A model generated the notes under the pieces. It was given only the letters and a program-made list of their open reading frames with translations. It was not told the DNA's origin and did no database searches. Below, piece after piece: positions 4,580-63,493 of a stretch of DNA of 64,000 nt. Every line of letters begins with the position of its first letter. Positions within the stretch are counted from its first letter, which is position 1. The stretch lies in assembly GCA_021613535.1 (NCBI GenBank), contig CP075497.1, forward strand, positions 4,340,001 through 4,404,000, read 5' to 3'. This DNA comes from Adineta vaga. Lineage: Eukaryota > Animalia > Rotifera. The position numbers were made by a program, and so were the translations under genes.

Positions 4580-6300
4580 GTGAGTAGATATTAAATTTGA
4601 TATACTTTTATAGTTACATAGATTTCTACCTGTCTGTTTCTTTTCCCTTTGCATAGTACAGGAAACGAAATGAGTTTTTGTCAAAGAACTCTTCATAATA
4701 GCAAATTTTTACTTTTATTATCTGTTTTTATTCGACTAAAACTAAATCGATACATGTATAAATAAGACTTTTTAAAACCAAATGTTTATTTTCACTATTC
4801 ATCTATTTCTTTATTTGAAATAGAAGATTATTAGTAGAATACAATATATCGTATCACACTAAAAGCATTGATGATAAATATTTGATTCTTTTTCCAGTTG
4901 AGTACACTATTTACGTGATTTTTTTAAAGGATTATTTGAAATTTCAAAACATTTCTTGTCTTGATCTTAATATATACAAAGAGGGAGGGACTAAAAGTGA
5001 ATATTGAATATTGGAAAATCAAAGTCTTCTGATTCTTTGTTCTGTATAGTTGATTAAGATGAATTTATATTATTTACTTATTATAATTTACTTTTTAACT
5101 AGACACTTTACCTCGATAACAACAGATCTTCGAATTTAACAGATATTGAATATGAACGATTATCTCTGATCTATATTATTAAACCTTATCTTCAAAAATT
5201 TAAGAATTTTATTTTTTTGAAATTTAAATATGTATATAAACAGAATGAAAATATTGTTTCTGGTATTAATATTGTTTAATAATGTTTTTTTTATGTATAT
5301 ATATATATATTTGTAATATTTGTTTCTTCGTCAATTAATGTAGGTTGTTCATTTTTTTTAATCAATTCAATTGGTATTTGTAATATCTTGATATTCAATA
5401 AAATACGATCTTTAAGAGAAAGATATATATTTATTGAAGAATACAGAGAGAAGAAAAACAGCAAGTAGAAAGAACAGAAAAAAGAAATATTGAATTATTT
5501 TTTACTATGTTTTTACTAATTGCTTGATAACAACGTTTCATTCAGTAATTTATTCAAACTGAAAATAAAGCTTTGTTTGGCGAGTGATTTAAGTTGTTTT
5601 AATTTTCGACATAAAAACTAATGTATGGTTTATAAAAAGATACTTGTTAATTCCTGATTCTAATGATAGCTTATTTGTATTATATGTGCACTATAGCTAA
5701 TAAAAGATAACGTTTTTTTTAATATACAGATGAAGCTACATAACCAAATATGAGTTGGGATATCATATGACTGAGCACACTCATATATAATGAATTTCAA
5801 GAAAAACTGATTTTCTAAACAATTTAAATTTGACAATAAAAATAAACATATTTTTAAAAACTATTTTCGAGGAAAAGACATGATGTAACAAATACAAATC
5901 CACCAATTGAAATCCGTATTGTTCGACGTTATACTTCACTATTTCAACTAAAGATAAAGAATAAAGAAAAATTAATTATTTCGAAATGTAAAATTATATG
6001 CACTATATCCTTTATTTTGAACAAAATTTTTCATAACTTTTAATAAATGTAGAGCTACAACAATATCTGGATGATAATCAAATATCCTCATAATGGAAAT
6101 TATATATATATAAAGTTTTGGTCTTTTTATTTGTTTGCTATATGCTCAATTTTTCAGTGGATCTCTAATTTTTTGACAGATATCACAAATTTGGTACTGA
6201 TGTTTATCTTCAGAACATGTGAAAATCTAAAAGATACTTTGAAATTTATCAAATGTTTCTTTGCGCCTTTTCGTTCATTTTGAATAAACAAAGAAAAAAA

Positions 6301-6711: not shown

Positions 6712-7221
6712 TATAACTCTATGAATATGACATATTTTTCTGAGAGTTTCCATATATTTTGATTTTGCACTCGAAAATCAATCTTACTTATTAATGACAT
6801 ATAAGGCGGATAATACTTTCTCAAATATAGATTTAAAGACAAAAATCTATCACTGGAGTGAGTATTGGTCATAAGAATAAATAATACAGCAACGTTTTGG
6901 ACGAGATATCACTTATAATCATCCTGATAAACGATAGTACGCTATTGAATATTGATATTCTATTATCATAAATTTTTTCGTGCAAAAATGTTACGTTATG
7001 AAGGTTGACAGAATAAGTAGGGAATGTGTTTTGATTTTGATATGTTACATTTTATCTGATAGAATAGAAGTATTAAATGTCAATTTGCTGGAGGAATAAG
7101 AAGTAAGCAAATAATACAATTTTTAATTGAAAAAAAAACAAGTCAAATAAATAAGAGCCTTACCTTTTCTTTGTTGTTAGAAGAGAAACCATTTGAAAGT
7201 GAAAGTCGTTGATTATTTCCT

Positions 7222-9461
7222 ATGATGATGTATCTTTCTAGCACTATTTTTATTATCGCTTTTGTTTGTATCTCAAATTTTTGTTTTGCTACACCACTCG
7301 ATGATTATGTCAATACACCTGATCCAATGTTCAGTTGGAAACGTCTTCAAACTTATTCATTACCAACTTACACAGTTTTTATATTGAATATGACATCACA
7401 ACGATGGTTTGATGGTAGAATTAGTTTGTTTAATGGAATATTCAATTATTTCTCGTTATTATTTCATAGATTCATTATCTTCACAATCGATTTGGTGGCA
7501 TTATATGGCTATTACAGTTCCACGAAATGTTCGTCGTTATAAAACAGCATTTCTACTCATCACTGGTGGTGATAATACTGATCCGTAAGTAAATGTATTC
7601 CATTTGATTTAAACAAACGTATAAGCATTAGTTCGGAACTATTTTAGAGTACCTACAAACAATCCAATGACATCTCTGGCAATAAGAACAAGTAGTATTA
7701 CAGCAACAATTTGGCATATACCAAATCAACCATTTCGTTTTTGGGTAATTGATTTGTTTTATCGTGCGAACTATCATGATAATGAACCATTATCGATAGG
7801 CTGATCCATTGAATAAACTTCGCGAAGAAGATGCATTGATTGCTTGGACATGGAAAAGATATCTAGATACGAATGGTGTTGATCCTACTATACTTCTTCG
7901 TTTTCCCATGACTAAAGTAGAGAGAAATAATATTCAACAAATCATTTTTTTAATTCTCATCCTGTTGATCAACAATAGGCAGTCGTACGAGCAATGGATA
8001 CTATTGAACAATTCTTAAAACAAGAACGTATTACGGTACCACAAGAATTCGTTATTGGTGGCCTTTCAAAAGTCAGCTGTCTGTTCATATACATTTCATA
8101 CTTATATTGTAGATCGTCTTCTTTTTTAGCGTGGATGGACGAGTAAAAATATTATAAAAATTATATCTATGTTCTACTTTTAATTTTAGCATGGACAACG
8201 GCTGCTGTAGATAATAAAAGAGTTGTAGCTGCAGTTCCAATTGTTATGGATTTACTCAATATTCGACCTGTAAGAGAAAAAAAACTTAACTATAAGTCAA
8301 TCTTGATATTTCGTTCTTTTTTTCCATAGAATATGATGTCACATTATCGAGTAGGTGTTTATTTCATTGATAAGAATACCATTTCGTTTTCTAATAGTCA
8401 CTTGGTGGATGGACATTTGCATTTAATGATTATTATGAAATGAATATTACTCGTTATATGAATAATCCTCTACTTGATAAACTAGCTGATATGGTAGATC
8501 CATATTGTAAGATATTGATTAGCTTATTTGATTATAATTTTGATATATCTACTTTTTTCAAAGCGTATCTGGATCGATATAATAAAACAAAAATCTTTCA
8601 ATTGCAAGGTGCAGGCGATGAATTTTTTCTACCAGATGGCGAAGTAAGATTCTCTTCTTCATCTAATTTGTATCAATGAAACAATTGTTAGGATTTCTTC
8701 TGGAATGATTTACAAGCAGCTACTGGTGGATCATACTTAAGGTAAAATAAAGTTAAATTATGTGATCAATCTACTTTTCAAATTATTATTAGACGAATAC
8801 CAAATACTGGTCATAATATACAAGGATATGAAGATAGTTTAGCTAGCTTCTATATGAGTGTGGCAGATGTAAGTTAACGTACTAACGACTAAGTTTTATT
8901 GATAATTTACAAATATAGAGAGTACCATTACCATCTATGAAATGGACACGAACAGTGAATGACACACATGGTCGTATAAATGCTGTCATTGATTTTAGTT
9001 CAGGAAAACCAAAACCCACAACTGTCACTGCTTATCAAGCTCGTACTACTGATACATTGCGGTAGGATTAGGAAAAGAAAACTTTTCATAGAAATCGTTT
9101 AGATACTTTCAAAACATATAGACGTGATTTTCGTCAAGCAAAACTTGATTTAAGTAATGGAAACATTGTCGCTAATCCTGTTGTATGGGCAAATACTGCT
9201 GTTCAGTTCGAAGTTGTATCAGAAACCTTTCTTTATGAATAAATAATCGTTATTTTCTAGGGACAAAGTGGCTCAACTGCATCGTATTCATTGACAATTC
9301 CTATTCCATCCGATGGTTATTGGTTAGCGACATTTATTCAAGCTACATTCTCCGGTCGTCAAGATTCAATATTGAGTTTAACCACAGAAACTTTATTTTT
9401 ACCAAATACTTATCCAGTAAAAGAATGTGTCGATCAAGAATGCTATGGATCACTTGTTTAA
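7222..9461 (+). CDS. PqaA / AprA-like secreted alpha/beta-hydrolase family protein, many exons
   Basis: Signal peptide; TPLDDYV, LNMTSQRW, WWHY, EDALIAWTW, FPMTK, GGLSKRGWTTW, VPIVMD, VDPY and GDEFFLPD motifs. Confidence 0.85.
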
Positions 9462-18064: not shown

Positions 18065-19393
18065 CTAATATGTTGATTTGAAAGGATAAAGTTTTGTTTG
18101 TAATTTTTCATATGGAATAAGAAATGTTCGTTGTTGAAGAATACTTTGAGCTTGATGAAATGGAAACATGTATTCAATCGAACGATTCGTTGAACCGATT
18201 ATCGTTGGATAATTAATAAAAATATTCTTCGAATTATGAATAGGTGAAATATTGACAACAAAATTTGATTGAAATTCACAATTATTTAGTAGTGCACGAG
18301 TAATACGAACAATTATCATTGCTTTTGTCCAATGTGATCGAAGTTTAGAATGAATTGAAGTTTTCAAAGATTCTATTCGATTGAATTTTGAAGTAGAAGG
18401 AAGATTCGGCAATATAAGATATCTTGCTACAATCTTTTGACGAAAGAATAGATCAGTAATAAATGGTAATCGACGTTGAACATTTGTATATAGGGTTTCT
18501 TTGTTTTTTAGAATCTTTATTAAATTCCATTCTTCCGATTCTTGTTTTCTTGACACTACTAATTGATTTTCAGAACACGGTTTCGCTATTTTATTGATAT
18601 CTGTCTTTGAATAAATATCTGAACAACTAATTCCATCTACTGTTAAATGATCAGCTAAGATTGTTGTGCATGCATCACAATCTAATCCATTTCCTACTAT
18701 AGAAAATCCATTGACATGACCATGTATGTTTCCCATCTGTTCAAGTGTCGTTCTATGTGCATAAGCTGTATCAATACTTGCTCCAAGTCCAAATACTCGT
18801 CCAATGGGAAATTTACTAACACATGATGCAACATAAGTCATCAATTCATTTGGTTGTGTACAAACGATCAATGTGGCATGTGGTGAATATATACATACTT
18901 GAGAAACAACACTTTCAACAAGAGATGCATTGACTTGTATCCATGTCCATGTACTTTCATGTTCTATGAAAGAATGCACTCAAGAGAGCGATTTTGATTA
19001 GGAAGTCTACGCACCTAATTGATGATGTTGAACATTAATAATGATTATAATTGAATCCTTAGTTTCCCAATATGAATAAACCCGTTCCAAACGTACGTTA
19101 TTTCGATTCAATACAGCAGTTACTTGAAGATCATGAAGTATGGTACGAACATCTTCTTTTAAACAAATATCAAAGACTTTTATACTTTCAATTGATGTTG
19201 ATGGTCGATGAACAAGGAGTGCAGCAATAGATGAATAGGTCGTTTGATTAATACCAATAAATGTCATTTGAGCACAATAAGGTCGAGTTTGAATTGGAGA
19301 ATTTCGAATAAAAAGACGATTTTTAGTAGTAGACACTGAAGGATTAGGAGGAAAACAAGATGATGGATGTAGTTTCGATCGATGTTGCATCAT
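18065..19393 (-). CDS. Highly divergent LDH/MDH-fold protein, probably catalytically inactive; intron 19014-18964
   Basis: SPHATLIVCTQPNELMTYVAS...FPIGRVFGLGASIDTA aligns to LDH LVVSNPVDILTYVA..SGFPKNRVIGSGCNLDSAR. Confidence 0.7.
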
Positions 19394-22113: not shown

Positions 22114-22635
22114 TTATCGTACAGATAAATTACGTTTATCGATTGTTGTCGTAACTAATCCAATTTTTCCATTCGATGTTTCAAATAATTTCGATTGTTG
22201 TACAAACCCATCTCCTTTCGGCATTGACGAAATATAATTTGATTCTTTCGTTGCTTGTTGACGTGCACGAATCAAAATTGGAACTGTTTTTAAACTTGCA
22301 ATAAGTTTTACTATAAGGCCAATTAAACAAAGTGTTTTAATAAGAATAAATATTGAACGTGGATCTGTATGAATTTCATAAGTTTCACAAACAATCGGTA
22401 CAATAGGTTTCTCTTTTGTTGTTGCAAATAGATTCCAAAACCAAGTGAAAATCGAATTTGTTTGATTAGTTCCTTGAGAAAAATCAATCGATGTTCGAAC
22501 AGATGGCATTGATGGTTTTGGACATTTCGAAGCGACAAGTGCTAATGATCGATAGCCATGTCGCATCCAATAATATTCACAATACGCACAAACCAAGCCA
22601 ATAAGAAGACAAATCATAAATAATTTATTTGTCAT
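22114..22635 (-). CDS. Intronless orphan membrane protein (2 hydrophobic segments, Cys-containing loop)
   Basis: 173-aa ORF with ATG, two hydrophobic helices and coding-like composition. Confidence 0.6.
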   Translation of the reverse strand: MTNKLFMICLLIGLVCAYCEYYWMRHGYRSLALVASKCPKPSMPSVRTSIDFSQGTNQTNSIFTWFWNLFATTKEKPIVPIVCETYEIHTDPRSIFILIKTLCLIGLIVKLIASLKTVPILIRARQQATKESNYISSMPKGDGFVQQSKLFETSNGKIGLVTTTIDKRNLSVR

Positions 22636-22802
22636 GATTTATTTGAGAGTAAAATAGGATATGAGATGAAGAGAAGATTTAGAAAAAGTTTTATCTACTT
22701 AACAACGAGAATGATTTGGAAAAAAGAAAATAACTAATGGCGCGAAAATTCAACATCTGTAACAAATCTTTCTTCGTTTTAGATCAATTTTTTTTAGAAA
22801 AC

Positions 22803-25800
22803 ATGAAAAAACGAATCTTACAGAATATCAGTCAAACAACAACCATAGAATCAACTGATCAAGTATGTAATTACGTAAATATTTTTTGAAAAAAGAAAAT
22901 TTTCGCATTGAATTTAGCCGGAAGATGCAGCGACAACAACACTTATTCTCGATAGTAAAAATCCATCAATCCCTCCTTCAACTCATAAAATTCGTCTTGT
23001 GGAAATTTCAACATCATATCGTCGTTTTACCGATTTTTCAAAACGTTTAAAAACATTAAAAACACTTCGAGAATATAATGAAACTCTTGGAGAATTCACT
23101 GACCGATTAATTCTCTTTCGTAATTGTATTGATGACTGTATCACGTAAATGAAATTCTACTATCTCTTTCAACATTCATTCAATTCAATTTTGATTTCTA
23201 TTTAGAATATTAATACAACATATTGTTGATACAACTGATTCATTAATTCAAATTGCTTTTATTAACACTTTAACAATTGTCGAACAGCGTTATTCAAACA
23301 GTTCAATCAAACATATTCATGAATTACTTGATATTGCTAAACAAACAAGTAAATCAAAAAACAAACTTTTCTTTCAATTTAATTCCTTTTCTCTACTCAT
23401 ACATAGAATCGATTAAGGTAGCTGGTGCTCTTCTTACATATTTTTCTATACTACCTGTATCAGCATTTCGAGATAAAGATGCATTCGTTCGTTATGCTAT
23501 TCAAGTAAATTTGCTAGAACATTTTTTTATTAGATTTATTTGTTAAAATTATTTAGTATTCAACAAATATTCATGTTCGTGTACAATTATGTGCATTTAA
23601 ATTACTTGGTAATCTAGGCCGTCTTTCTGATCTTGATGAATCACTGAAATTAACAATTATTAATAAATTATTACAAGCTATTGATCATGATGATGCACGT
23701 GTTCGAGCTGAATCATTACGAACGATTGTAAAAGATCTCTTTATGATTGTTAATATCAGTTTTCTATTGAATGAATTTAGGTTGATTTATTTAAATGTAA
23801 AGTTGGATTAGATCCTAAACATTATAGTTCATTTGTCGAATGTTTACAAGATTATTATCCCGAAGTGCGTTTAGCTGCATGTGAAGCATTATTTCTTCTT
23901 GGTATCAATGCACCAGATAGGTATTGAACGAAAGAACTGTTTTCTTTCTTTGAAATTCGATCTTTTTTTAGTCCTGTTCCATCGAGTTTATCAACTGATG
24001 AATCGTCAAAACTAATTAATCAAATATTTCGTGTGATTTGTGATTTAACTAATGATGAAGCAAAAAGTGTTCGAGTTCAAGCAATGAAAATGATTGTAAA
24101 TATTTCCATTACATCAAGAAAAAAGTATAGAACCAATTTTCTATATTTTTAGGGACAATTATGTCGAAATGGAGTTGATATTAATTTAATTCATCAAACT
24201 CTTGATAAAAAACTTCTACGAGTAAAATCTAATGAAACTTTGTTGTCTTTTTTTTGCTGAGATTTTATCGTTTCTATTAGATTACAAAAAAGAAAGCTTT
24301 TATTGCTAAAGTTGAACAATTAGACAGTGAAACGGATGATATTACTGTGCATGATGTTACTGTCGATGCTCAATCGGCATCTATTACATCCATAGGTCCT
24401 TGTGGTGCATTAATCAGTGGACTTGAAGATGAATTTTCAGGTTAATATAAATTATAAGGATTCTATTCAATGTTTACATACGAATTCATTTTCAGATGTT
24501 CGTGCTGCAGCTATTGATTCTTGTTATGATATTTCTTGTTGTTACGATGTATTTCAATCGAAACTTGTGGAATATATTGTTTCCATGTTTGATGATGATA
24601 TTGAACATGTTCGATTACAAGCAATGCGTATATTAGGTAAAATAGCTCAAGGACGTGTATTACGTGGCGAACAAGTATTATCCATTCTCACAGAATTACT
24701 TGTATGTTTATGAAAATCAAGAATTAATTGATATAAAGGATTTATTTTAGAGCCGTTCGTATGATATTCGTTCAGCACTTCATGATGTTTTAAGAGTTGT
24801 ACGTATTGGTGATCCAGATACATTATTTAAATTATTTCATCGTCTTGTGGAAAATATTCAACGATTTAAAACCGATACTCATTCTGTTCTAAGGTTAGAT
24901 AAGAATTTTTTCTAATCATTGCGATATTTGTCAATATTTCTATGTAGATGTTTAAGAGAATTAGGACAGAATAATAGTGCATTTATTGCACTTCTTCTAC
25001 CAAAATTATTACCAATGCATAGTTATTTAGATGTTCAAGAACCACAATTTTCCAAAATTGATCGTTTGTATCGATGAGAAAGTTCGCAAGGAAGTTCTAA
25101 TTCTTTCTCTTTCTCTAGATACTTGTGCATTAATTGTGGTATTAAATGCTACTCTACATCATCCTTCAATCATTTCTATTCTTCCTGATTACGTTTTTCG
25201 ACATTATCGGTATCTAAGAACGAAAGAACCTGATCTCACACCAAATCTTGAAACGGTAATCTTTACTAAGAAACGAATTGTAACAATGAAATAGTTTTGT
25301 AATTCTTTTCATTTAGAATTTTTCTCTTAATCAACTAACCACAACATTCAATGCTGATTCTTCCCTTCCAGTTACTATTCCATCATCACATGATGTATTT
25401 GAACGTATTTTAAAACTTTCTGAACAAAGTCAAGATCTTCATGCAAGTGATAGGCAAAAATTCTATCGAAATCTTGCTACGTATGTTCATATTTACTTTT
25501 GTCCATATCAAACAATTCTTTTCATCTTTCGTTCAGAGAACTACACAAAGTTGCCGAAATGGATATTAATCTTCTCGCTATATCCGAATGTATATCACTC
25601 TATTACCAAGTACTTGCTATTATAACTTATCAATGCAATACACGAACTTGTCTAAAGGTTTATTGAATTGATTTCGACGAAAAAAATAGCTTCACTATTT
25701 TCTTCTTCAAGGCATTATCTATATGTAAACGTTTATTAACTGTATTTCATGGTTATTCCAAAGATCAATTATTTATATTTCAACAATTACATCTCTATTG

Positions 25801-26851
25801 TCATTTACTTCTGATTTCCCTTCAAACAAAACTAACAACAAATGCTCGTCAACGTTGTTATAAACATATTCAATGGCATCGAGAAAAAATGAAAGATAAT
25901 CAAATTGAAATCGATATGGATGAAAAATTACTTTATACAAATTTAATTACGTATGCACAAAAATTTATGACTAAAATATCTCAACATGCTACATTCAAGA
26001 AAACAAATTTTATCAAAGCAAACGATTCTATTCGTATGATATCTGTGACATTTCTCGAACCCGAATCTGATATTGAACAAGTTTTGGAATTTCTACCTGG
26101 TCTATCAGTATCTATACCTTGTCTAATGAATGCAAAGAATCTTGATCGACAACGAACAATCAATATTAAAGTATCTGTTGTTCAAAATAATTTAAATTTC
26201 TAATTTTTTTCAATAGGTTACTTATACAGATGGACAATCTTGTTTATTACCAATCACGGATGATAATATTCGAACATTAACAGAAGATAATTCATTACGT
26301 ATTGATTCTAAAATAACATTTTCACATCAACATTGGCTTCGTAAGAATTAATTCAATAGAGAACAAAAAAAGCATCTTCAAACCTTTCTTTTAGGTCCAA
26401 ATTATGCATCATTTTCTGTTGTATTATTTCCATTACGTTCTCAATGTTTTGTGATGGATCCAAATGATGAATATATTGAAATAACTAAACCAATTCGTGC
26501 TTTACTTCATCCAAAATATCTTCGACATCGTTCACGAAAGAAACATAGTGTCGACGAAAAAACTCCGCTAACAACAACAACAGTTGCACGATTAGAAATA
26601 GGTAGGTTGAAAATATCATAACAGATATGAATAACTCATCTTTGAAATATTCTATCCTAGATATGGGTGATGATGATAATGATGAACACGAAACTGAATG
26701 GCTAGATGAAACTGGTGTTGATGAAGAAGAAACTGGACATATCGATGATGATGAATCAGAAATGGATATTAGTCAAGATGAAGAACAAATTGATTATGTG
26801 GAACGAAGAACAACAGCTGATAGTGATGATGATGATGATATGACACATTAA
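22803..26851 (+). CDS. INTS4: Integrator complex subunit 4 (HEAT repeats), multi-exon
   Basis: CGALISGLEDEFSDVRAAAIDS...MFDDDIEHVRLQA, TLDKKL, FRHYRYLR...PDL, YTDG; acidic tail. Confidence 0.88.
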
Positions 26852-27133: not shown

Positions 27134-28374
27134 ATGGCACTATTGAGTGGAAATATTTCCGAACTTTATCAATCGAATCTCAAACGTTTAGTCATCAGTA
27201 TTCTTGTTGCTTTTCTTCTTGTTGGTTCTTGGCGTTTATGTGGTTCACAATGTTGTACATTTAAACATGATCATTCACTTAAGATATCTATTTGGAATCG
27301 TATTGATCTCTCAGCATTTCGATTTTTTAATCGATGGTTACTTACAAGAGAGCATCATACACTAATTGCACGAATTTTTGTTGCACTGAATTCACTTGTC
27401 ATTGGCGAACTTATTTCTAATTTTACGATAATATCAGTTACTTCTATGATTTTTTCATCGAAATATATCTTTCCAAAACAAACATGTTCATTTAAAGTAT
27501 CGGTTGTATTAGCTATGATTATTTATGGAATGTTCGGGCAAATGTTATTAACAAAATTATCTAGAGATTTTCTATGTCCTAAACGACCATCACCATCTGT
27601 GGTGTTTCGTTTTTCAACAGTTAATCCAGAGAAACAAGCAATCTCATCATCATCAGATGATGTATTCAGTATTAATCGATTATTTGAAGAAGCTAAAAAC
27701 CGTGACCTTGTTAAAGAAATTGCTCATGATAGGTAGGTAGAATGACATTTTATCTAAGTGCATCTTTAGTATCGAGAAGATTCATTCGATTTTTAAGGTA
27801 ATAATTTGTTATTAAAAATGCTGTAAAACAAAAGGAAGCAAAAAAATGAGGAAATTAATTTTCTTCTTTTATTTCTATTCAATTAAGTCAACTATGAAAT
27901 ATCTTTGTTATATTAGTATTCATCGTTTTCAATGGAACAAGTTTGTACTAAGAAATACCATACACATTAAAATAAAAGATAGTTGTTCTCTATAGAGCAT
28001 TTGATTAATTTTTAACTTTACTGAATTAAACGGATATTCATTTCTCTTTCAATTCTAGTTGGCCGGGTGAACATGCAGCAGTCAATCTCATTTGGTCTCT
28101 ATTCATGTCAACTATTATCAGTCGATCAACAAATGGTCTATCAGGAGCGAAACGATTCTTTATGCATACCATCGTATGGTTTATTGCTCTTCTTTTTGCC
28201 ATAGCACGTCTGGTTAGCGGTGCACATTGGTTCTCAGATTGTTTTGCTGGTGGATTTAGTGAAGCTTTACTAGTCGTTGCTATTGGCATTTATACGCCAA
28301 TATTTCAATACATTACTAAGATTATTTATTTCTTAATCGATCGATCGAGATCAAATGTCAAAAAACTCTTATAG
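27134..28374 (+). CDS. PAP2-superfamily membrane protein resembling bacterial LpxT (YeiU); intron 27733-28058
   Basis: Spliced motifs SW...W..ID...F.FFN, KRPSP, KEIAHDSWPGEH, RLVSGAHWFSD versus LpxT KDASRDSFPGDH and PRVMIGAHWFTD. Confidence 0.8.
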
Positions 28375-29037
28375 ATCGTCATTGAATAGTTGAATGTTGT
28401 AATAAAATAGAAACGTTTATTCTCGAAAATAAAGTCATTTTAACGGTGTTTACGCCTATACCTCTCAGATCAAAATAATAATCTTGCATGACCTCGGTAC
28501 ACTCACTAATCCTAATAATTAGATTTTAAAATTATTTTATAACTTAATTTGTATTAGAAACATTGAATATGCATAAAAACAGCATAAGATAAGAATAGTT
28601 CAAAATGAAATTTATGGATTGATTCATTACTTTGATCATATGCGGCATGATTCAATACATCGATAGGTGGTCTGATAAAATGACAAATTTTGTTTGATTT
28701 AAGATTCATATCGAAAAGAAACAACTAGGTCTTGTTTTTCTTTTTGATTATATATCAATATGCTCTTTTGCAATTCCGATTAGTGGACTCAAGAATATGT
28801 ACAATCTGTTAGAATCATTAGAAAACAAAAATCGATTGATGATCCGTCGTTTCATGTGTCATTATCGAGCAACCAAAAAAGAAATAAAAGAAGACAATTG
28901 TTCGATTGATTGGCAGAACAAAAAATCTATCCATATCATTAGACGGAAAAGAAAAAGAGAGAGAGAGAGAGAAAGTGAAAGTTACATCTCATTTCACATA
29001 TATACGCCAACTAAATCAGAACTGGTTTGATTTCAGT

Positions 29038-29430
29038 ATGAATACTGATAACAAGAGTCGTCCAAAACGTCGAATGCCTTCAATAAATTCAAGTAATAAA
29101 TTATCATCAAATTTGAAATGGATTAAACCTCGTTATTTAGCCAATCAACGTGAACGTGATCGAACACATTCGGTGAATTCAGCATTTATCGAATTACGAC
29201 ATCTCATTCCAACGGAACCAGCTGATAGAAAACTATCCAAAATTGAAACACTTCGTCTTGCTGTTAGTTATATCAATCATCTTCATTCGGTATTAACATT
29301 ACCTAATATTACACAAAATCATTGTGCTTTTGTTCAAATGAGAAATAACGAAAATAATCATGGAGAACATGAAGATAATGATCAACATCTATGTACTTTT
29401 TGTGTTAATCATTCATCATTATCAATTTAA
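29038..29430 (+). CDS. Paraxis/scleraxis (TCF15/SCX)-family bHLH transcription factor
   Basis: [48 protein letters not shown] and C-terminal CTFC motif. Confidence 0.93.
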
Positions 29431-52348: not shown

Positions 52349-53947
52349 TTAATGTTCACTTATTACTTTAATTGGTGGTTTGATTTGTGAAAGCATGTTT
52401 GAATTATCATTTTCAACCTGTCGTAATGTATTATCCATGTAAGTCAATTGACGACGATTGTATGGATTATTTGGACTTGGAGATGGAGTATTTCGGTATG
52501 TATTATTTGGATTTGGAGATTGACGAGCATATGATGAACTATGTAGATGTGAAGGTTGATGTCGATAGGACATGCTCTCTGGATAGACAATTGGACGATT
52601 AGAGTTTATATTCATAGAGCTAGCACTGTGTTCATAGTAAGATGTGTTAGGTTTAACTATATCTTGTTCAGAAAACATCAAATAAGTATCACTTGCTCTT
52701 CGACTATCACGTTTAAGACTGTTCAAATTCAGTTGTGAACGTCTTTGTTCATCTGCATTCGATCTTTGTTGTCCTTGATCAAATTTCTTTCCATGAACAT
52801 ATAAGCCTTTTGCTATTGCCATAATAAATCTTCCTTCGAACAACTTTTTTATCCAATGTTCAGGAAGTCTCTGAATGCCATATACTGCACCCGCTAGTTC
52901 ACCATAAATAGCTGCTGTTGTATCTGTATCATCACCGATGTTCACAGCAGCGAGAGCACCTCTTTCAAATGAATCACCATCATTATAAAATGCCCATAAA
53001 GCAGCTTCCAATGATTCTAATACATAACCTCGACCACGTATACCATCATCATAGCCTTTCTTATGTTTATATGAACCTCGCGCAATTTCAAGAACATCTC
53101 TATGTAATGGTATATTAAGATAATCTTGACAGAAATTTGCGTGTAGAAGTTGTTTTTTTGAAAAACCATTGATAGCATGCCAAATAAGACCAGCATAGAA
53201 TTGACAAGCATCAACTGCTTTTTGATCACCATGTGTAAGTCTCGTTGATTCATCGATATATTGTTTAACACTATCATATGATTGAAAATAGAATAGAGGT
53301 AAAGGTGCTAAACGCATCAAAGCTCCATTACCAGCTGCATCTAATGTTCCACATTTGACATCAAAGCCAAACTGATGATAATAATATTCAATCAAATCAT
53401 CGTTCAGCGAAAAACTCCCATTACTAGAACCGTTCTGTTGCATTTTTAAACTTATAACTTGACGTTGTCGATTTTCGAATTCTTCAATAGCTTGACGAGT
53501 AGATTTGCCAATATCAAAACATCTTCCTGTCGATGATAAATATCCATTTCTAAACCAACGTTTATAGCGTGCAAATTGATCATAAGTATCAGATTTTCCT
53601 TTTATGATAAGACTAGCTGCAAGACAAAGTGCCATCGATGTATCATCCGTCCATTGACCAGCACGAAGACCCCATGTACCACCACTTTGCATATCTGTTA
53701 CTGGATGTTGTCTTAAAAATTCATATGGACGAAATTCTACAGATGCTCCAAGAGCATCACCTATGGCAAGACCCATAAGAGAGCCTTGAATCTTTCGAAT
53801 AATCTCACTATCACTTACATCTAATTCAGGATCATGAAGATATTTAAATTCTTTGTAAGGTTGATCAGAATCAAGTAGTTGACTCAACGTAGACACTGGT
53901 CTATCTTGCTGATCATTGTTAAAGTGTGCTACAAGGTACCTTGTCAT
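52349..53947 (-). CDS. ADP-ribosylglycohydrolase (DraG/ARH family), intronless, low-complexity C-terminal tail
   Basis: GLAIGDALG, GQWTDDTSMALCL, FDIG, GNGALMR, THG, GDDTDTTAAIYGELAGA. Confidence 0.93.
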   Translation of the reverse strand: MTRYLVAHFNNDQQDRPVSTLSQLLDSDQPYKEFKYLHDPELDVSDSEIIRKIQGSLMGLAIGDALGASVEFRPYEFLRQHPVTDMQSGGTWGLRAGQWTDDTSMALCLAASLIIKGKSDTYDQFARYKRWFRNGYLSSTGRCFDIGKSTRQAIEEFENRQRQVISLKMQQNGSSNGSFSLNDDLIEYYYHQFGFDVKCGTLDAAGNGALMRLAPLPLFYFQSYDSVKQYIDESTRLTHGDQKAVDACQFYAGLIWHAINGFSKKQLLHANFCQDYLNIPLHRDVLEIARGSYKHKKGYDDGIRGRGYVLESLEAALWAFYNDGDSFERGALAAVNIGDDTDTTAAIYGELAGAVYGIQRLPEHWIKKLFEGRFIMAIAKGLYVHGKKFDQGQQRSNADEQRRSQLNLNSLKRDSRRASDTYLMFSEQDIVKPNTSYYEHSASSMNINSNRPIVYPESMSYRHQPSHLHSSSYARQSPNPNNTYRNTPSPSPNNPYNRRQLTYMDNTLRQVENDNSNMLSQIKPPIKVISEH

Positions 53948-54682
53948 GTTGAGACCTTCAAAACGAAAAAGACGAAGCAAAATAACATATACATATGAAT
54001 AAATATGTCTATTTCTGAATATTACCTTCTCATAATCGATAAATAACACGTGTAAAGGGAAAAAATATGATCATCCAGAACTGACAGTTATGTTTGGGTG
54101 TAAGTTTTTCGTGTTTTTCTCTTCTCCATTCCTTATTATTGAAAATGTTTGGAAGAGGAACAAATCAGATATAAATATACTGTTCGAAATCAAATTAACT
54201 AATTTAAAGTTTCAAAATTGTTATAAATAAGCAAAAAAGAGAATTCAAAATAATTGTCGTTCTTGAATGTTCAATTGTTTTCTTTTAATAAAAATTCACA
54301 CAATACACTTATAAAGTATATAGTAGAAGAAATAAAACGAAACAAAAGACTGTATTTTTCTTTCGAGTGAAATATATAAAAATATATTTGTGAACAATAC
54401 TCAATGATAACAAGAAGAAGCAAAAGAGAGAAAGAGAGAGAAAATAAGTGCACTGCTCAGTAAGAATAATTGTGAGATTACTGAATAAATGATTTTTAAG
54501 AATAATTTCCAATTAAATTTTGTTCTTTCTGTCACTGTGCTGATTGACTGACATAAAGCACCGAGTTGTGTTTTGTCCAACAAAAAAATACAGATTTAAC
54601 GACTGTTATAATGACTGATAAATATCTGAATATCAATTTTTCTTTCGATTTCCATTTTTGGTGATTGAAATGAAATAAGATA

Positions 54683-57600
54683 TTAAACTGGATCTGTATC
54701 ATTATCTAGTAATGGATGAACTAAAACATCTGGAATAGAAATCTGTTCCTTTTCTTCAATATTTTGAATTGCTGGCAAAAAAAGAAGAAATCAGTAATCT
54801 TTCATTTCGATAAGAAATATTCTTACTTTGTATGAGTACTGTTTGTCCCTGATCTTCTTGATTTATATCAAATTGTGATGCACGCATACTGTTATATATT
54901 GTACGTCCAGTCGTATCAACCCAATCCATATTAGATAATGTTTCATCATCATCCGTTATATCACAATTATCACCTTGACGTGATTGATGACTTGGTAATG
55001 TTCGTTCAATATCTTCAACAAATTCGGATAATTTACGAAAACGTTCTTTGATTAATCTGCCATATATATTATTTTCTGTTTCTTCAGCTTCGTACAAAGA
55101 TGGATGACTCGTATCATCGGGCCCATTAACTGACGTTGACGAAGTACTTAATGTTGTTGCAGTAATACCTAAACGTTCGTCATTATTAGCAAATGCTGAT
55201 GTACCTGAGTATGCGCCAACAACAATTTGTGGTGGAGCAGAGGATGGTATTTGTATGGGATTCATAGCAGCTTTTCGAGTGTTAAAACTTGATGAACGTA
55301 TTGGTCGACTATGGCCTGAAGATGATAAGAATGATGATGTAGGTAATGCTCCTTCCTCTGGTGTGGATACAGCTGTGAAATTGAAAATGTCATCATCATT
55401 TGTTTCTTTTATTTTCTTGTCAGATGTTCGTGATGATGTCGATTCACCTAAAGTTTGTTGTTCGTTGGATGTTTTTCGCATATTTTGAACTAAAACATTC
55501 AATAGTTGTATAGTAGATGCTTGCATTTCTTCGAGACGTTGTAAACGTTCATCAAAATTGTGAAAGTGATTGATTTGTTGTGCACCATTTCGTTTCAATG
55601 TTTCGACACGTGTTAACATATGGGATACTCTAAATAGAATTTCTTTAATCATTGAATGAAAAGGAAAAAATTCAACTACCTTTCAGATGTAGTTGACATT
55701 CGTTCTTCTACAGTACTTTTTTCTTTATCTTCTTTGGCGATAAGATATTCGTGAACACATTCTTCTTCAAAATCACGTAATTTTTCGATTTCTTTAGCGC
55801 TTAAAAATAATTTTAAACCACGATTGAATGTACGTTTACGATGGCGGCATATACGATAGATTATTTTGATAAAAAGAATAATATGAGAAATGATGATGAA
55901 AGGTGGAGCTAAGAATGGTTTTTGTTCGTATTGAAGAATCGTATGGTATCGTTGAAATTTCCATACCTAATATTTAAAAAGAAAAAAAGGATTCTCTAAT
56001 CTACACCCTCAAGACGAATGTTTACCTGATCGGATAATCGACTTAATCTCATAAATGTAGATGTAAATTGAGCCATTAACATTGATAATAGAAGTATATT
56101 ACAAACAAGAAGAAATGCTGTCATTGTTATAGGAGTAATAAAATGTCCAAATTGACATGATGGATTATTTGGATCTTCTGTTCGATTACAAGGTGGATCG
56201 ATCTTTTCCGCATATACTTCACCGTATATCTAATATACACAAAAAGTATAGTAGGGTGTGTGTTTACTTTCAAATTAGTATACCATAAAATAAGGTTCGA
56301 GAAAGATTTCCTTTACTGAATCCCATTTCCAGTCTTCATTCGGATATTTAATCGCTTGTCTTGATACACCAAAACTCATTAGTACAATCAAAACAATTAC
56401 AATTAGACGAAGTAAATCGATGATCTAATTTGAAGAAATAATAAAAACGAAATGACTTACAAAAAAACTATCTTGATATCTACATTTCTAGCTGCGATAT
56501 GAATATAAGGTCCCACTTCTTTTGAAACAACCAAAAAATGAAACATTCGAAGATACCATAAACTCAAATTAATGCATAATAATAATCTGCCAACAATCAT
56601 AAACGTCGATGTTAATCTTAATCCAAATGCTAATGCAAACATAAGACAACAAAATGTATCATATAAATGTAAAACATCATGAAAATAAACTGATAAACAA
56701 GTTTTCCATCTTGTTCCATTCATCATTAATAATTCTCGGATTAAATCCATAGCAACTGTTGTTAAATAAGTCATTAAAATCCATTCCAATACAGATGGTT
56801 TCGGTGGTGTTTTAATTAGCACAACATAAGTAAAAATTGACAAGAAAATCGTAAAGAAAAGAAAATCTTGAAAAAATTTTGTTACAGGTGCATTATAAAA
56901 TTCATAGACTTTTTTTGTAAATGGTATCTGATCAGTACTTGAATCATTATCAGCTTTTCTCCACCAACGATAACGACGAATACATCGTTGTATACAATGT
57001 GTAACGAAACCAAAAAAACGATCTCTTATGGAATGATGAATAGCTACATGAACATTTGCTAGACAACGTCGAACGAAACGTCGTGAACGGTTCACATTTG
57101 ATAAGTTATTGATTTCATCTTGTTCATTAATGGATATTGATGTAACTGCTGTCATTGGTGATGGATGATGATTACCAGATAGATCATTCATTGCAAGTAG
57201 ATCTAATTCATCGGAATGATGATTCGTATTTATATTGTTTGTATTGATCGGAGGTGATGGTGGTTGATCATCGGGATGAACAGAACTACTATTTTGTTTC
57301 TTACGTTTTTTCTTGCGACTTCTCCTTTTACGTTTTCGTAATGTACTTGTTTCATGTTGTAATTCATCATTGGTTTGATCATCGTCTCGATCAGTATTAT
57401 TTACTGGTACCGCTAATTCAGGCGATTCATCTGACGATGATGAACGAGAATCATTGGAACTATTATCACTTGAACTACCATCATAATTATCACTATCGAC
57501 AGGATCATCTTCATCTAAACAAGAAAACAAAATATTTGTTTATCAAAACAATGTTCGATTCTTACTTTGAAAATATTCTTCTTCAGTTTGAGGCATGAGC

Positions 57601-61720: not shown

Positions 61721-61878
61721 CTACAATAGTGTTCTAAATGGTTGAACATAAGTCTTTTGTCTTGCGATTTAATCAAATCAGCTGTCTGTCTACTTTTCGA
61801 TTCGGGATCAAATATGAATAGATAATCATTCATCTTCACAAATTTGTTTTATTAAAAAGCTCAAATTCGATTCTCGAT

Positions 61879-62919
61879 ATGTCTAATTCGAATGATGAAC
61901 GACAACGAGAGCTACTTGATATTAATATTAACAATGAACAAATTTCACCATTGTCAAATCGTTTTCTCGTTGCACATTCATCTCCAGTCCTTGAATCAAC
62001 AACAGAAGTGATTATTCGTGCACAAGATGATTCATTTCAATCATCATCATCAACATCTAATTCGAAAAGTAGTTCAAGTACAACAAGTCGTTCATCTCGT
62101 CTTCATTTTTTAATGATGCAACAACATTCGGCTGTTAATTCGCCATTAATGTATTCTCGTTGTACTTCACTTGGATCATTATCAAGTTATGATATTCGAT
62201 CTTCATGTAATGATTCTTATACATCTGAATGTAGTTCAGTAAAACCATCTGGAATAATTTCACCAAGTGATATACCGGATTCACCACCATGTGAACCTGA
62301 AATACTTGAAGAAGAAGAAGAAGAAGAAGAATATCGACAGATAAGAACAAATAACCGAACATTAACAATGAATACAACAGCAAATAATAATCGAACAACA
62401 ATATTAAGTGAAACAGTGATTGAAAAAACACTTACACTCAATCAACATGATTCATTTTCAAATCGAATTAATAATATTGATGATGAGTATCAAAATAGAA
62501 GTCCAACATATTTACCTGATCATTCGAACTGGAACTCCAACCATATCAATAGTTCTTCTCATGAAAATGAACTTTGTTTTGATGATGATTATCCTCGAAT
62601 ATTTAATAGTGAAATGGATGACGATGATTCTTTAATCGATGATCAAATTCAATATGATGCATCATTTACTGTTCCTTCTCATGAAAATCTTAGTGTTATC
62701 ACAGAAGAATCATCATTTATTGAAGAAATCAATTCGAACGATGAAGCAAATAGTATTAAAATTCTCTATGATCTTATTAAAAAACCACATTGGACAAATA
62801 AATCTACTTGTAATCAACAATTACCAATCAAATCTTCTTATCTTGAAGAAAATACCAATACTTCAATTAGCAGTAATCCAAGTAGTCTTAGTCTTGATAG
62901 TAATGATGGGAATCAAACC

Positions 62920-62973
<54 letters not shown>

Positions 62974-63493
62974 TATGATCAAGAAAAAGGTCGACAATTA
63001 ATACAACGTCTTATTGAAGAAACTCTTGCTAGAAGGTAAAACGAACCGTTAGTACTTCTTTTTTTTCTATATTTTCTCTTTCTTCCAGATCTGTTCCAAC
63101 AGATTATCTTCATTCAACCTCGTGTGTACTTTGTCCATTGAATACACCAATGACTACAGCAACACGAAGTGTCTCATCTTCTTCGAGTTCAATATCTGCA
63201 TCGACAAAGTCTTGTACGTGTGTTACAAATCGATCGACAAATTCTGTTTCACAACCACAACGAAGCCGAAGTTCACCAGCTAGACCTTCGTCAACTAGTG
63301 TTGATGATTCAAAGCGACAAACAAGTCGACAGAAGGTATTTTTCTATTAAAAACAAACTTAATCTTCATATTTCGTCTTTGCTTTATTTACCTATCCTAG
63401 GAGAATACAGTGCATCACACTCGTACTTCATATTTACGTCTTCGTCAAGCTCAACAAAATAAACGATCCCATCAACATGATAAAAAATCCTAA
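61879..63493 (+). CDS. APC-like protein fragment gene (20-aa repeat 2 + CID, acidic/SAMP-like segment), no Armadillo repeats; 3 exons
   Basis: SPLMYSRCTSLGSLSSY...SGIISPSDIPDSP versus human APC TPLMFSRCTSVSSLDSF...SGIISPSDLPDSP; in-frame exons 61879-63035, 63089-63334, 63401-63493. Confidence 0.78.
62920..62970 (+). repeat. (GAT)n coding repeat giving poly-Asp
   Basis: Uninterrupted gat run in the APC-like ORF. Confidence 0.95.

What the first reader, a model, noticed from the sequence alone, without database searches (positions are those of the whole stretch)
27134..28374. Animal gene resembling bacterial lipid A phosphotransferase LpxT, with an acquired intron
The spliced protein follows the LpxT/YeiU pattern along its length (SW, W..ID..F.FFN, R.SP, INR, K....DS[W/F]PG[E/D]H, R...GAHWF.D) rather than the eukaryotic SFPSGH PAP2 type. 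LpxT transfers phosphate from undecaprenyl-PP to lipid A, substrates that animals lack. A 326-nt GT-AG intron splits the C2 motif, and the gene lies between INTS4 and paraxis, which argues against contamination. Inferred: a domesticated horizontal transfer, perhaps acting on dolichol-PP or on dietary LPS.
Basis: partly seen in the sequence, partly recalled or inferred. Interest (0 to 1): 0.78.

Follow-up and report, generated by a model that had tools for sequence, protein, structure and literature searches.

The report
Rotifer ER enzyme from bacterial LpxT
A bdelloid rotifer carries a spliced, conserved gene that resembles the bacterial lipid A-modifying enzyme LpxT, likely captured from bacteria long ago; it has gained an intron and an ER-retrieval-type tail and is predicted to work as a lipid phosphatase inside the animal's endoplasmic reticulum.

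Summary
Observation confirmed. The gene (27134-28374, 304 aa) is identical to Adineta vaga I4U23_028617. Its 326-nt intron is spliced in contigs of 3 of 4 runs laid. Orthologues occur in Adineta, Rotaria and Didymodactylos, and 7 of 7 complete metagenome copies have the same intron. Synteny with INTS4 and the bHLH gene is conserved, and dN/dS against the window is 0.23-0.32. Of 112 non-bdelloid hits among 1.84 billion representatives, 109 are LpxT-type. So it is a real, old, domesticated gene of likely bacterial origin. Limits: trees put it beside, not inside, sampled LpxT, and AU tests reject no placement tried, so the donor is unknown. It also scores below true LpxT members. Two new features point to function. 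15 of 16 bdelloid proteins end in KKxx (1 of 136 LpxT-type proteins), and they carry a complete R-X6-RP phosphatase motif (0 of 93 LpxT-type). Best guess: an ER enzyme with a luminal active site that hydrolyses a lipid pyrophosphate such as dolichyl-PP; action on dietary LPS is unlikely. Activity is untested, and A. vaga keeps a DOLPP1-like gene. About 10% of bdelloid genes are foreign, which tempers the surprise.

The parts
27134..27732 (+). Exon 1: residues 1-199 plus two bases of the Ser200 codon; predicted TM1-3, LpxT-type N-terminal signature, C1 motif R144-X6-R151-P152-S-P, K194
27733..28058 (+). 326-nt GT..AG phase-2 intron; same position in 7 of 7 complete metagenome copies (80-218 nt there)
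28059..28374 (+). Exon 2: C2 (W201-P-G-E-H205), C3 (R250-X5-H256-X3-D260), predicted TM4-6, tail and stop
28360..28371 (+). C-terminal KKLL, a KKxx dilysine ER-retrieval-type motif
   Evidence: 15 of 16 bdelloid proteins, 1 of 136 LpxT-type
28375..28467 (+). 3' UTR with AATAAA at 28401 and 28428; a contig of X5 ends in A8 after 28467
25667..26851 (+). 3' part of the INTS4 gene, upstream neighbour (context)
29040..29430 (+). bHLH gene, downstream neighbour (context; paraxis/scleraxis-like is recalled, not tested)

Best explanation
This spliced, conserved bdelloid gene encodes a PAP2 membrane enzyme likely derived from bacterial LpxT by an old horizontal transfer, predicted to sit in the ER membrane with its active site in the lumen, where it most likely hydrolyses a lipid pyrophosphate such as dolichyl-PP. 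Shown: gene structure, splicing, synteny, purifying selection, PAP2 catalytic residues, LpxT-type signature, KKxx tail. Inferred: (1) Transfer predates the split of Didymodactylos from Adineta and Rotaria. (2) Six membrane helices with both ends cytosolic, so the periplasm-facing site of LpxT becomes lumen-facing and KKxx is exposed to COPI. (3) His256 (= LpxT His190) attacks the terminal phosphate to form phospho-His, helped by Asp260, Arg250, Arg151 and Arg144, and His205 protonates the leaving lipid and then activates water. (4) With no lipid A to accept the phosphate, water does. The complete R-X6-RP motif and the loss of LpxT-specific residues fit a shift from transferase to hydrolase. 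(5) Dolichyl-PP, released in the lumen by oligosaccharyltransferase, is the host lipid most like LpxT's donor C55-PP.
For: Origin: in E. coli K-12 the bdelloid profile hits only lpxT at E<=1. All 16 plasmid-collection hits of P0003 lie at places that E. coli LpxT hits at 62-100% identity, 16 of its 19 places. 109 of 112 non-bdelloid representatives score best against E. coli LpxT among its four PAP2s. An HMM of 79 LpxT-type non-bdelloid proteins gives the bdelloid proteins 123-136 bits, YbjG 40, PgpB 7 (members were found with the rotifer profile, so this is partly circular). 23 columns unite bdelloids and LpxT against the outgroups, 2 the reverse. The careful tree gives LpxT plus bdelloids 99/94 against 5 other PAP2s. 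Domestication. ER: KKxx in 15 of 16 bdelloid proteins while positions -5 to -8 vary; KKxx is a COPI retrieval signal (PMC3521961, abstract start in listing). The model (pLDDT 84.8) has the PAP2 fold (Z 13.4-12.4 to acid phosphatases, B. subtilis PgpB, LpxE, G6PC1). LpxT's site faces the periplasm (PMC7356881 passages). [quoted passage not shown] Hydrolase shift: R144-X6-RP in 7 of 7 full-length bdelloid proteins and a complete [KR]-X6-RP in 0 of 93 LpxT-type proteins with a readable motif. The LpxT Arg62 column (83% conserved) is lost, and Pro183 and Asp149 are changed.
Against: No activity or localisation was measured. A. vaga keeps an expressed DOLPP1-like model (FUN_006001, best hits only E 2e-12, no Pfam PAP2 listed; PMC12220480 supplement), so the gene is not an obvious replacement. 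E. coli LpxT alone does not supply enough C55-P to rescue loss of the other phosphatases (PMC7413402 passages), so the parent is a poor hydrolase in vivo. AU tests do not reject a grouping with YbjG-type proteins, and the Didymodactylos protein scores 26.4 bits with YbjG against 21.3 with LpxT in the single-sequence test. One bdelloid copy (P0237 = L008) ends EKLP, without the full KKxx. The 16 tails are related and partly redundant, so they count as one conserved gain. PAP2 motifs do not predict substrate.
Confidence: 0.42

Rival explanations
1. It is still a phosphotransferase: in the ER lumen it would move the terminal phosphate of dolichyl-PP onto a host lipid or glycolipid (ceramide, a GPI intermediate, a lipid-linked sugar), coupling carrier recycling to a lipid modification not described in animals.
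For: Most LpxT-specific columns outside the universal PAP2 core are kept (W33, W54, D58, F62, N86, S153-P154, K194, G203, T279), which a generic phosphatase would not need. Retention beside a native DOLPP1-like gene suggests a distinct job. Other PAP2-fold enzymes (Aur1, SMSr) are lipid phosphotransferases.
Against: No acceptor is known. C1 is complete as in hydrolases, and several near-invariant LpxT residues are changed. The kept residues may be structural.
Confidence: 0.22
2. It is an ER-luminal phosphatase for another substrate (phosphatidate, DGPP, sphingosine- or ceramide-1-phosphate, or glucose-6-phosphate as in G6PC).
For: Same localisation and motif evidence. PAP2 enzymes such as PgpB are promiscuous (PMC7413402 passages). 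G6PC1 is among the structural matches.
Against: No sequence similarity to human G6PC1 or PLPPs at E<=10. A. vaga has other PAP2 models annotated as PLPP-like and S1P phosphatase-like.
Confidence: 0.22
3. It acts on lipid A from eaten bacteria, removing or adding phosphate to detoxify it.
For: LpxT ancestry implies a lipid A-binding surface. Bdelloids eat bacteria (general knowledge). The related LpxE removes lipid A 1-phosphate (PMC6581854, listing).
Against: A conserved KKxx tail predicts ER residence, away from gut lumen and lysosome. LpxT adds phosphate rather than removing it.
Confidence: 0.08
4. It is not LpxT-derived: it comes from an unsampled sister family, or it is a fast-evolving native PAP2 that resembles LpxT by convergence.
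For: Sister rather than nested position; AU tests not decisive; score below held-out LpxT members (123-136 against 172-268 bits); no eukaryotic PAP2 was in the trees.
Against: Full-length colinear signature. No closer family among 1.84 billion representatives. No non-bdelloid eukaryote is named among the hits looked up.
Confidence: 0.06

Closest known systems
LpxT (YeiU), C55-PP:lipid A 1-phosphotransferase of Gram-negative bacteria
   Same: Colinear over the whole length; N-terminal SW and W..D..F..N elements, R.SP, K194 (= K139), PG[DE]H (H205 = H150), R250/H256/D260 (= R184/H190/D194), TP.
   Different: Animal host without lipid A or C55-PP; intron; KKxx tail; complete R-X6-RP; Arg62 column lost, Pro183 to Ala, Asp149 to Glu, Phe146 to Trp; longer loops with conserved Cys36/40/41/148; scores below true members.
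DOLPP1 / yeast Cwh8, dolichyl-PP phosphatase
   Same: PAP2 enzyme of the ER with a luminal site and cytosolic ends (PMC4281381 passages); the proposed functional analogue.
   Different: Different lineage: no such protein is evident among the hits. About 238 aa and four TM segments against 304 aa and six predicted. A. vaga has a separate DOLPP1-like model.
YbjG/PgpB/LpxE bacterial C55-PP phosphatases
   Same: PAP2 fold; hydrolase-type complete C1.
   Different: No NCBIfam YbjG hit and only 14.6-16.9 bits to the PgpB model in 2 of 6 proteins; they lack the LpxT signature columns.
Other domesticated bacterial genes of bdelloids
   Same: Old, expressed, intron-bearing foreign genes are common, about 10% of genes (PMC11258130 passages). 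Other foreign PAP2-named transcripts are listed in PMC4632278 (supplement rows).
   Different: The eubacterial rows there have best bacterial scores of 82-348 bits, against about 76 for this protein, so they are probably other genes. No LpxT or YeiU label was found there.

Membership tests
PAP2 superfamily | Pfam PF01569 above the curated cut-off | tested here: met
   49.2 bits, cut-off 27.2
PAP2 superfamily | C1 KX6RP, C2 PSGH, C3 SRX5HX3D (motif as given in PMC7413402) | tested here: met
   R144-X6-RP, PGEH205, AR250-X5-H256-X3-D260; catalytic residues invariant in 7 of 7
PAP2 superfamily | Helical PAP2 fold | tested here: met
   Top 18 VIA rows are PAP2 or haloperoxidase folds, Z 13.4-9.4, rmsd 3.4-8.2, next row 6.8; Foldseek gave no match at E<=0.001
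LpxT | Closest E. coli PAP2 is LpxT | tested here: met
   Profile hits only lpxT; 6 of 7 single proteins score best with LpxT, Didymodactylos with YbjG
LpxT | Family signature outside the universal motifs | tested here: met
   23 columns against 2; hhalign 99.95% over 233 columns
LpxT | Score within the range of members | tested here: not met
   123-136 bits against 172-268 for 56 held-out LpxT-type proteins and 209.5 for E. coli LpxT
LpxT | Near-invariant Arg62, Asp149, Pro183 (E. coli numbering) | tested here: not met
   Variable, Glu and Ala in the bdelloid proteins
LpxT | Nested inside the LpxT clade | tested here: inconclusive
   Sister at 99/95 and 64/77; AU p 0.34 nested, 0.40 and 0.35 with YbjG-type
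LpxT | Transfers phosphate from C55-PP to lipid A | not testable with these tools
   Needs an assay; both substrates are absent from animal cells (general knowledge)
Metazoan DOLPP1/PLPP/G6PC | Best hits are eukaryotic PAP2s | tested here: not met
   109 of 112 non-bdelloid hits are LpxT-type; human PAP2 chains in the PDB are not matched at E<=10 by P0003 or the bdelloid profile
Metazoan DOLPP1/PLPP/G6PC | Groups with them in a tree | not tested
KKxx ER-retrieved membrane proteins | Lys at -3 and -4 of a cytosolic C-terminus | tested here: met
   15 of 16 sequences; the cytosolic side is inferred from the model and PAP2 topology
KKxx ER-retrieved membrane proteins | ER residence that depends on the lysines | not testable with these tools
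   Needs imaging

The most novel reading that the evidence does not exclude
Bdelloids have rerouted a bacterial lipid A phosphotransferase into the ER, where it still transfers phosphate, from dolichyl-PP to a host lipid or glycolipid. That would be an ER-luminal phosphotransfer reaction and a lipid modification not described in animals, kept across all sampled bdelloid genera.
Probability: 0.22. Interest if true: 0.8.

Novelty: new variant of a known kind. Interest (0 to 1): 0.5.

Why it matters
It appears to be an undescribed eukaryotic offshoot of LpxT, an enzyme whose donor and acceptor are both bacterial. It shows visible steps of domestication in one small gene: an intron, an ER-retrieval-type signal and a remodelled active-site motif. 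It offers a natural comparison for what makes a PAP2 enzyme a transferase or a hydrolase, testable by simple complementation in yeast and E. coli K-12. Its best bacterial BLAST score is only about 76 bits, so score-based screens could miss or mislabel it. Against this, foreign genes are routine in bdelloids and the function is not shown.

Tried and rejected
No whole genome is held for the window, so paralogues and the native PAP2 set could not be listed directly. The genome-contig scan with the bdelloid alignment found nothing (49 pattern matches, none confirmed), and the LpxT alignment was too diverse to scan with, so no named donor loci were obtained. NCBIfam gave no LpxT-specific match, even for E. 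coli LpxT. The ESM Atlas gave only generic prokaryotic PAP2 clusters at 0.91-0.92. No RNA holder is on record; RNA status is read from splicing. Contig depth was not used to rank expression. The AU test of a placement with E. coli LpxT did not finish. Contamination was rejected, as was a pseudogene (open frames, dN/dS below 1). Literature: searches found no paper on an LpxT-like rotifer or eukaryotic gene; the one hit was the string LPXTG, and the other hits were judged from listings only. Supplements searched without an LpxT hit: PMC11258130 (12 of 16 files, plus file 13; one file too large to read), PMC10809525, PMC3499245, PMC4632278, PMC12220480. The PMC12220480 table is cut (last rows shown near 6,300), so this gene's row and any HGT flag could not be seen. 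Subscription papers and bioRxiv supplements were not searchable. Earlier scan findings: none.

Full report
Observation. The window is AT-rich, intron-rich animal DNA. Exon 1 used as a query returned a 304-aa protein identical over all 199 residues, NCBI I4U23_028617 of Adineta vaga (P0003). Joining 27134-27732 and 28059-28374 gives a 915-nt CDS that translates exactly to it. The intron is 27733-28058, 326 nt, GT..AG, phase 2 in Ser200. Contigs of three runs from three studies skip exactly these 326 nt along with INTS4 introns, one ends in A8 at 28467, and a fourth run covers the intron without a joint. The tool does not record these runs as RNA; I read that from the splicing. Pfam gives PAP2 for the protein, INTS4_C upstream and HLH downstream.

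A domesticated bdelloid gene. Named orthologues are in A. ricciae, A. steineri and Rotaria sordida (73-77% identity), Rotaria sp. Silwood2 and Didymodactylos carnosus (56%). Of 8 metagenome loci, 7 hold both exons, and all 7 have a GT..AG intron at the same codon and phase, 80-218 nt long. All 5 loci long enough have INTS4 upstream and the bHLH gene downstream; two of these are near-identical. Their bdelloid origin is inferred from identity and gene order. dN/dS (Nei-Gojobori) is 0.23-0.32 against the window and 0.20-0.56 over all 28 pairs. GC is host-like: CDS 0.34, GC3 0.21. The intron was not checked in Didymodactylos.

Affinity. HMMER over 1.84 billion representatives returned 118 proteins: 6 bdelloid-type (105 bits or more), then a gap to 62 bits. 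Of the other 112, 109 score best against E. coli LpxT among the four E. coli PAP2s. Most are unnamed. Names seen are Thioglobus, Pseudomonas, Micavibrio, Nitrincola, Ca. Ruthia, Burkholderiales, Rhabdochlamydiaceae and two 'Kdo2-lipid A phosphotransferase' labels; calling the rest bacterial is inference. Two tests are not circular. The profile finds only lpxT in E. coli K-12, and all 16 hits in the plasmid collection are places that E. coli LpxT hits at 62-100% identity. Twenty-three columns unite bdelloids with LpxT against six other PAP2s; two go the other way. Human PAP2 chains in the PDB are not matched.

Results against a simple reading. The bdelloid proteins score 123-136 bits on an LpxT-type HMM, below 56 held-out members (172-268). 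FastTree (151 rows) and IQ-TREE LG+C20 (56 rows picked from them) place them as sister to all sampled LpxT (99/95), with LpxT plus bdelloids at 99/94 against five outgroups. On 29 rows the sister position falls to 64/77. AU tests, with groups named after seeing the trees, reject neither nesting among gamma/beta-proteobacterial-type LpxT (p 0.34) nor grouping with YbjG-type proteins (p 0.40 and 0.35). No eukaryotic PAP2 was available for the trees. So 'LpxT-derived' rests on profiles and signature residues, and the donor is unresolved. I file it as LpxT-like, not as an LpxT.

Anatomy. The model from 86 sequences (pLDDT 84.8) has the PAP2 fold with six long helices read as membrane-spanning (16-41, 88-107, 118-147, 204-221, 229-253, 258-278). 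His205, Arg250, His256 and Asp260 match LpxT His150, Arg184, His190 and Asp194. H190A abolishes LpxT activity (PMC2904496 passages), and the site faces the periplasm (PMC7356881 passages), the equivalent of the ER lumen. First, 15 of 16 bdelloid proteins end in KKxx while the residues just before vary, against 1 of 136 LpxT-type proteins; the exception ends EKLP. These are related sequences, so this is one conserved gain. KKxx is the COPI retrieval signal (PMC3521961, listing). Second, 7 of 7 full-length proteins have a complete C1, R144-X6-R-P, against 0 of 93 LpxT-type proteins in which the motif could be read, while the LpxT Arg62, Asp149 and Pro183 columns have changed.

Mechanism. I infer an ER-resident enzyme that forms phospho-His256 from a lipid pyrophosphate in the luminal leaflet and releases the phosphate to water. 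Dolichyl-PP is the likeliest substrate, because it is the host counterpart of C55-PP and is recycled in the lumen (PMC4281381 passages); confidence 0.42. Against this, A. vaga has an expressed DOLPP1-like model, though with weak hits (PMC12220480 supplement), and E. coli LpxT cannot replace the other C55-PP phosphatases (PMC7413402 passages). Rivals are a retained transferase acting on a host lipid (0.22), another ER substrate (0.22), dietary lipid A (0.08) and a non-LpxT origin (0.06).

Novelty. Five paper searches and supplement searches of five bdelloid papers found no mention of it. Some files were cut or unread, so it may sit unlabelled in a bulk HGT list. About 10% of bdelloid genes are foreign and most transfers are old (PMC11258130 passages), so the transfer itself is expected. 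The retargeting and active-site change are the new part. Verdict: real, new variant of a known kind, interest 0.5.

Noticed in passing
window 7213-7542 (+): ORF piece matching Pfam PhoPQ_related (PF10142, 23.4 bits, cut-off 20.3); possibly another gene of foreign origin.
   Followed up: no
window 52349-54070 (-): Uninterrupted 573-aa ORF with an ADP-ribosylglycohydrolase domain (253.6 bits), just downstream of a TRPM2-like gene on the same strand; origin not checked.
   Followed up: no
window 22114-22638 (-): 174-aa ORF with no Pfam match above cut-off, head to head with INTS4, conserved at 65-74% in L011-L013.
   Followed up: no
window 18065-18979 (-): 304-aa ORF with only a weak Ldh_1_N match (21.7 bits, below cut-off).
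   Followed up: no
window 29092-29141: One contig of X12 skips 48 nt (GT..AG) in the 5' part of the bHLH ORF, while an X5 contig runs through it; possible alternative intron.
   Followed up: no
window 61822-63039 (+) and 54756-55682 (-): Long ORFs (405 and 308 aa) without a Pfam match.
   Followed up: no
L008:885-1202 (P0237): The one bdelloid copy whose tail lacks the -4 lysine (ends EKLP).
   Followed up: partly
PMC12220480 supplement rows FUN_003050, FUN_003051, FUN_006300, FUN_006001: A. vaga has other PAP2-superfamily genes with non-animal best hits (Bacteroidetes inositol-phosphorylceramide synthase-like; a fungal-like lipid phosphatase) with an empty HGT cell, and its DOLPP1-like model matches Brachionus only at E 2e-12.
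   Followed up: no
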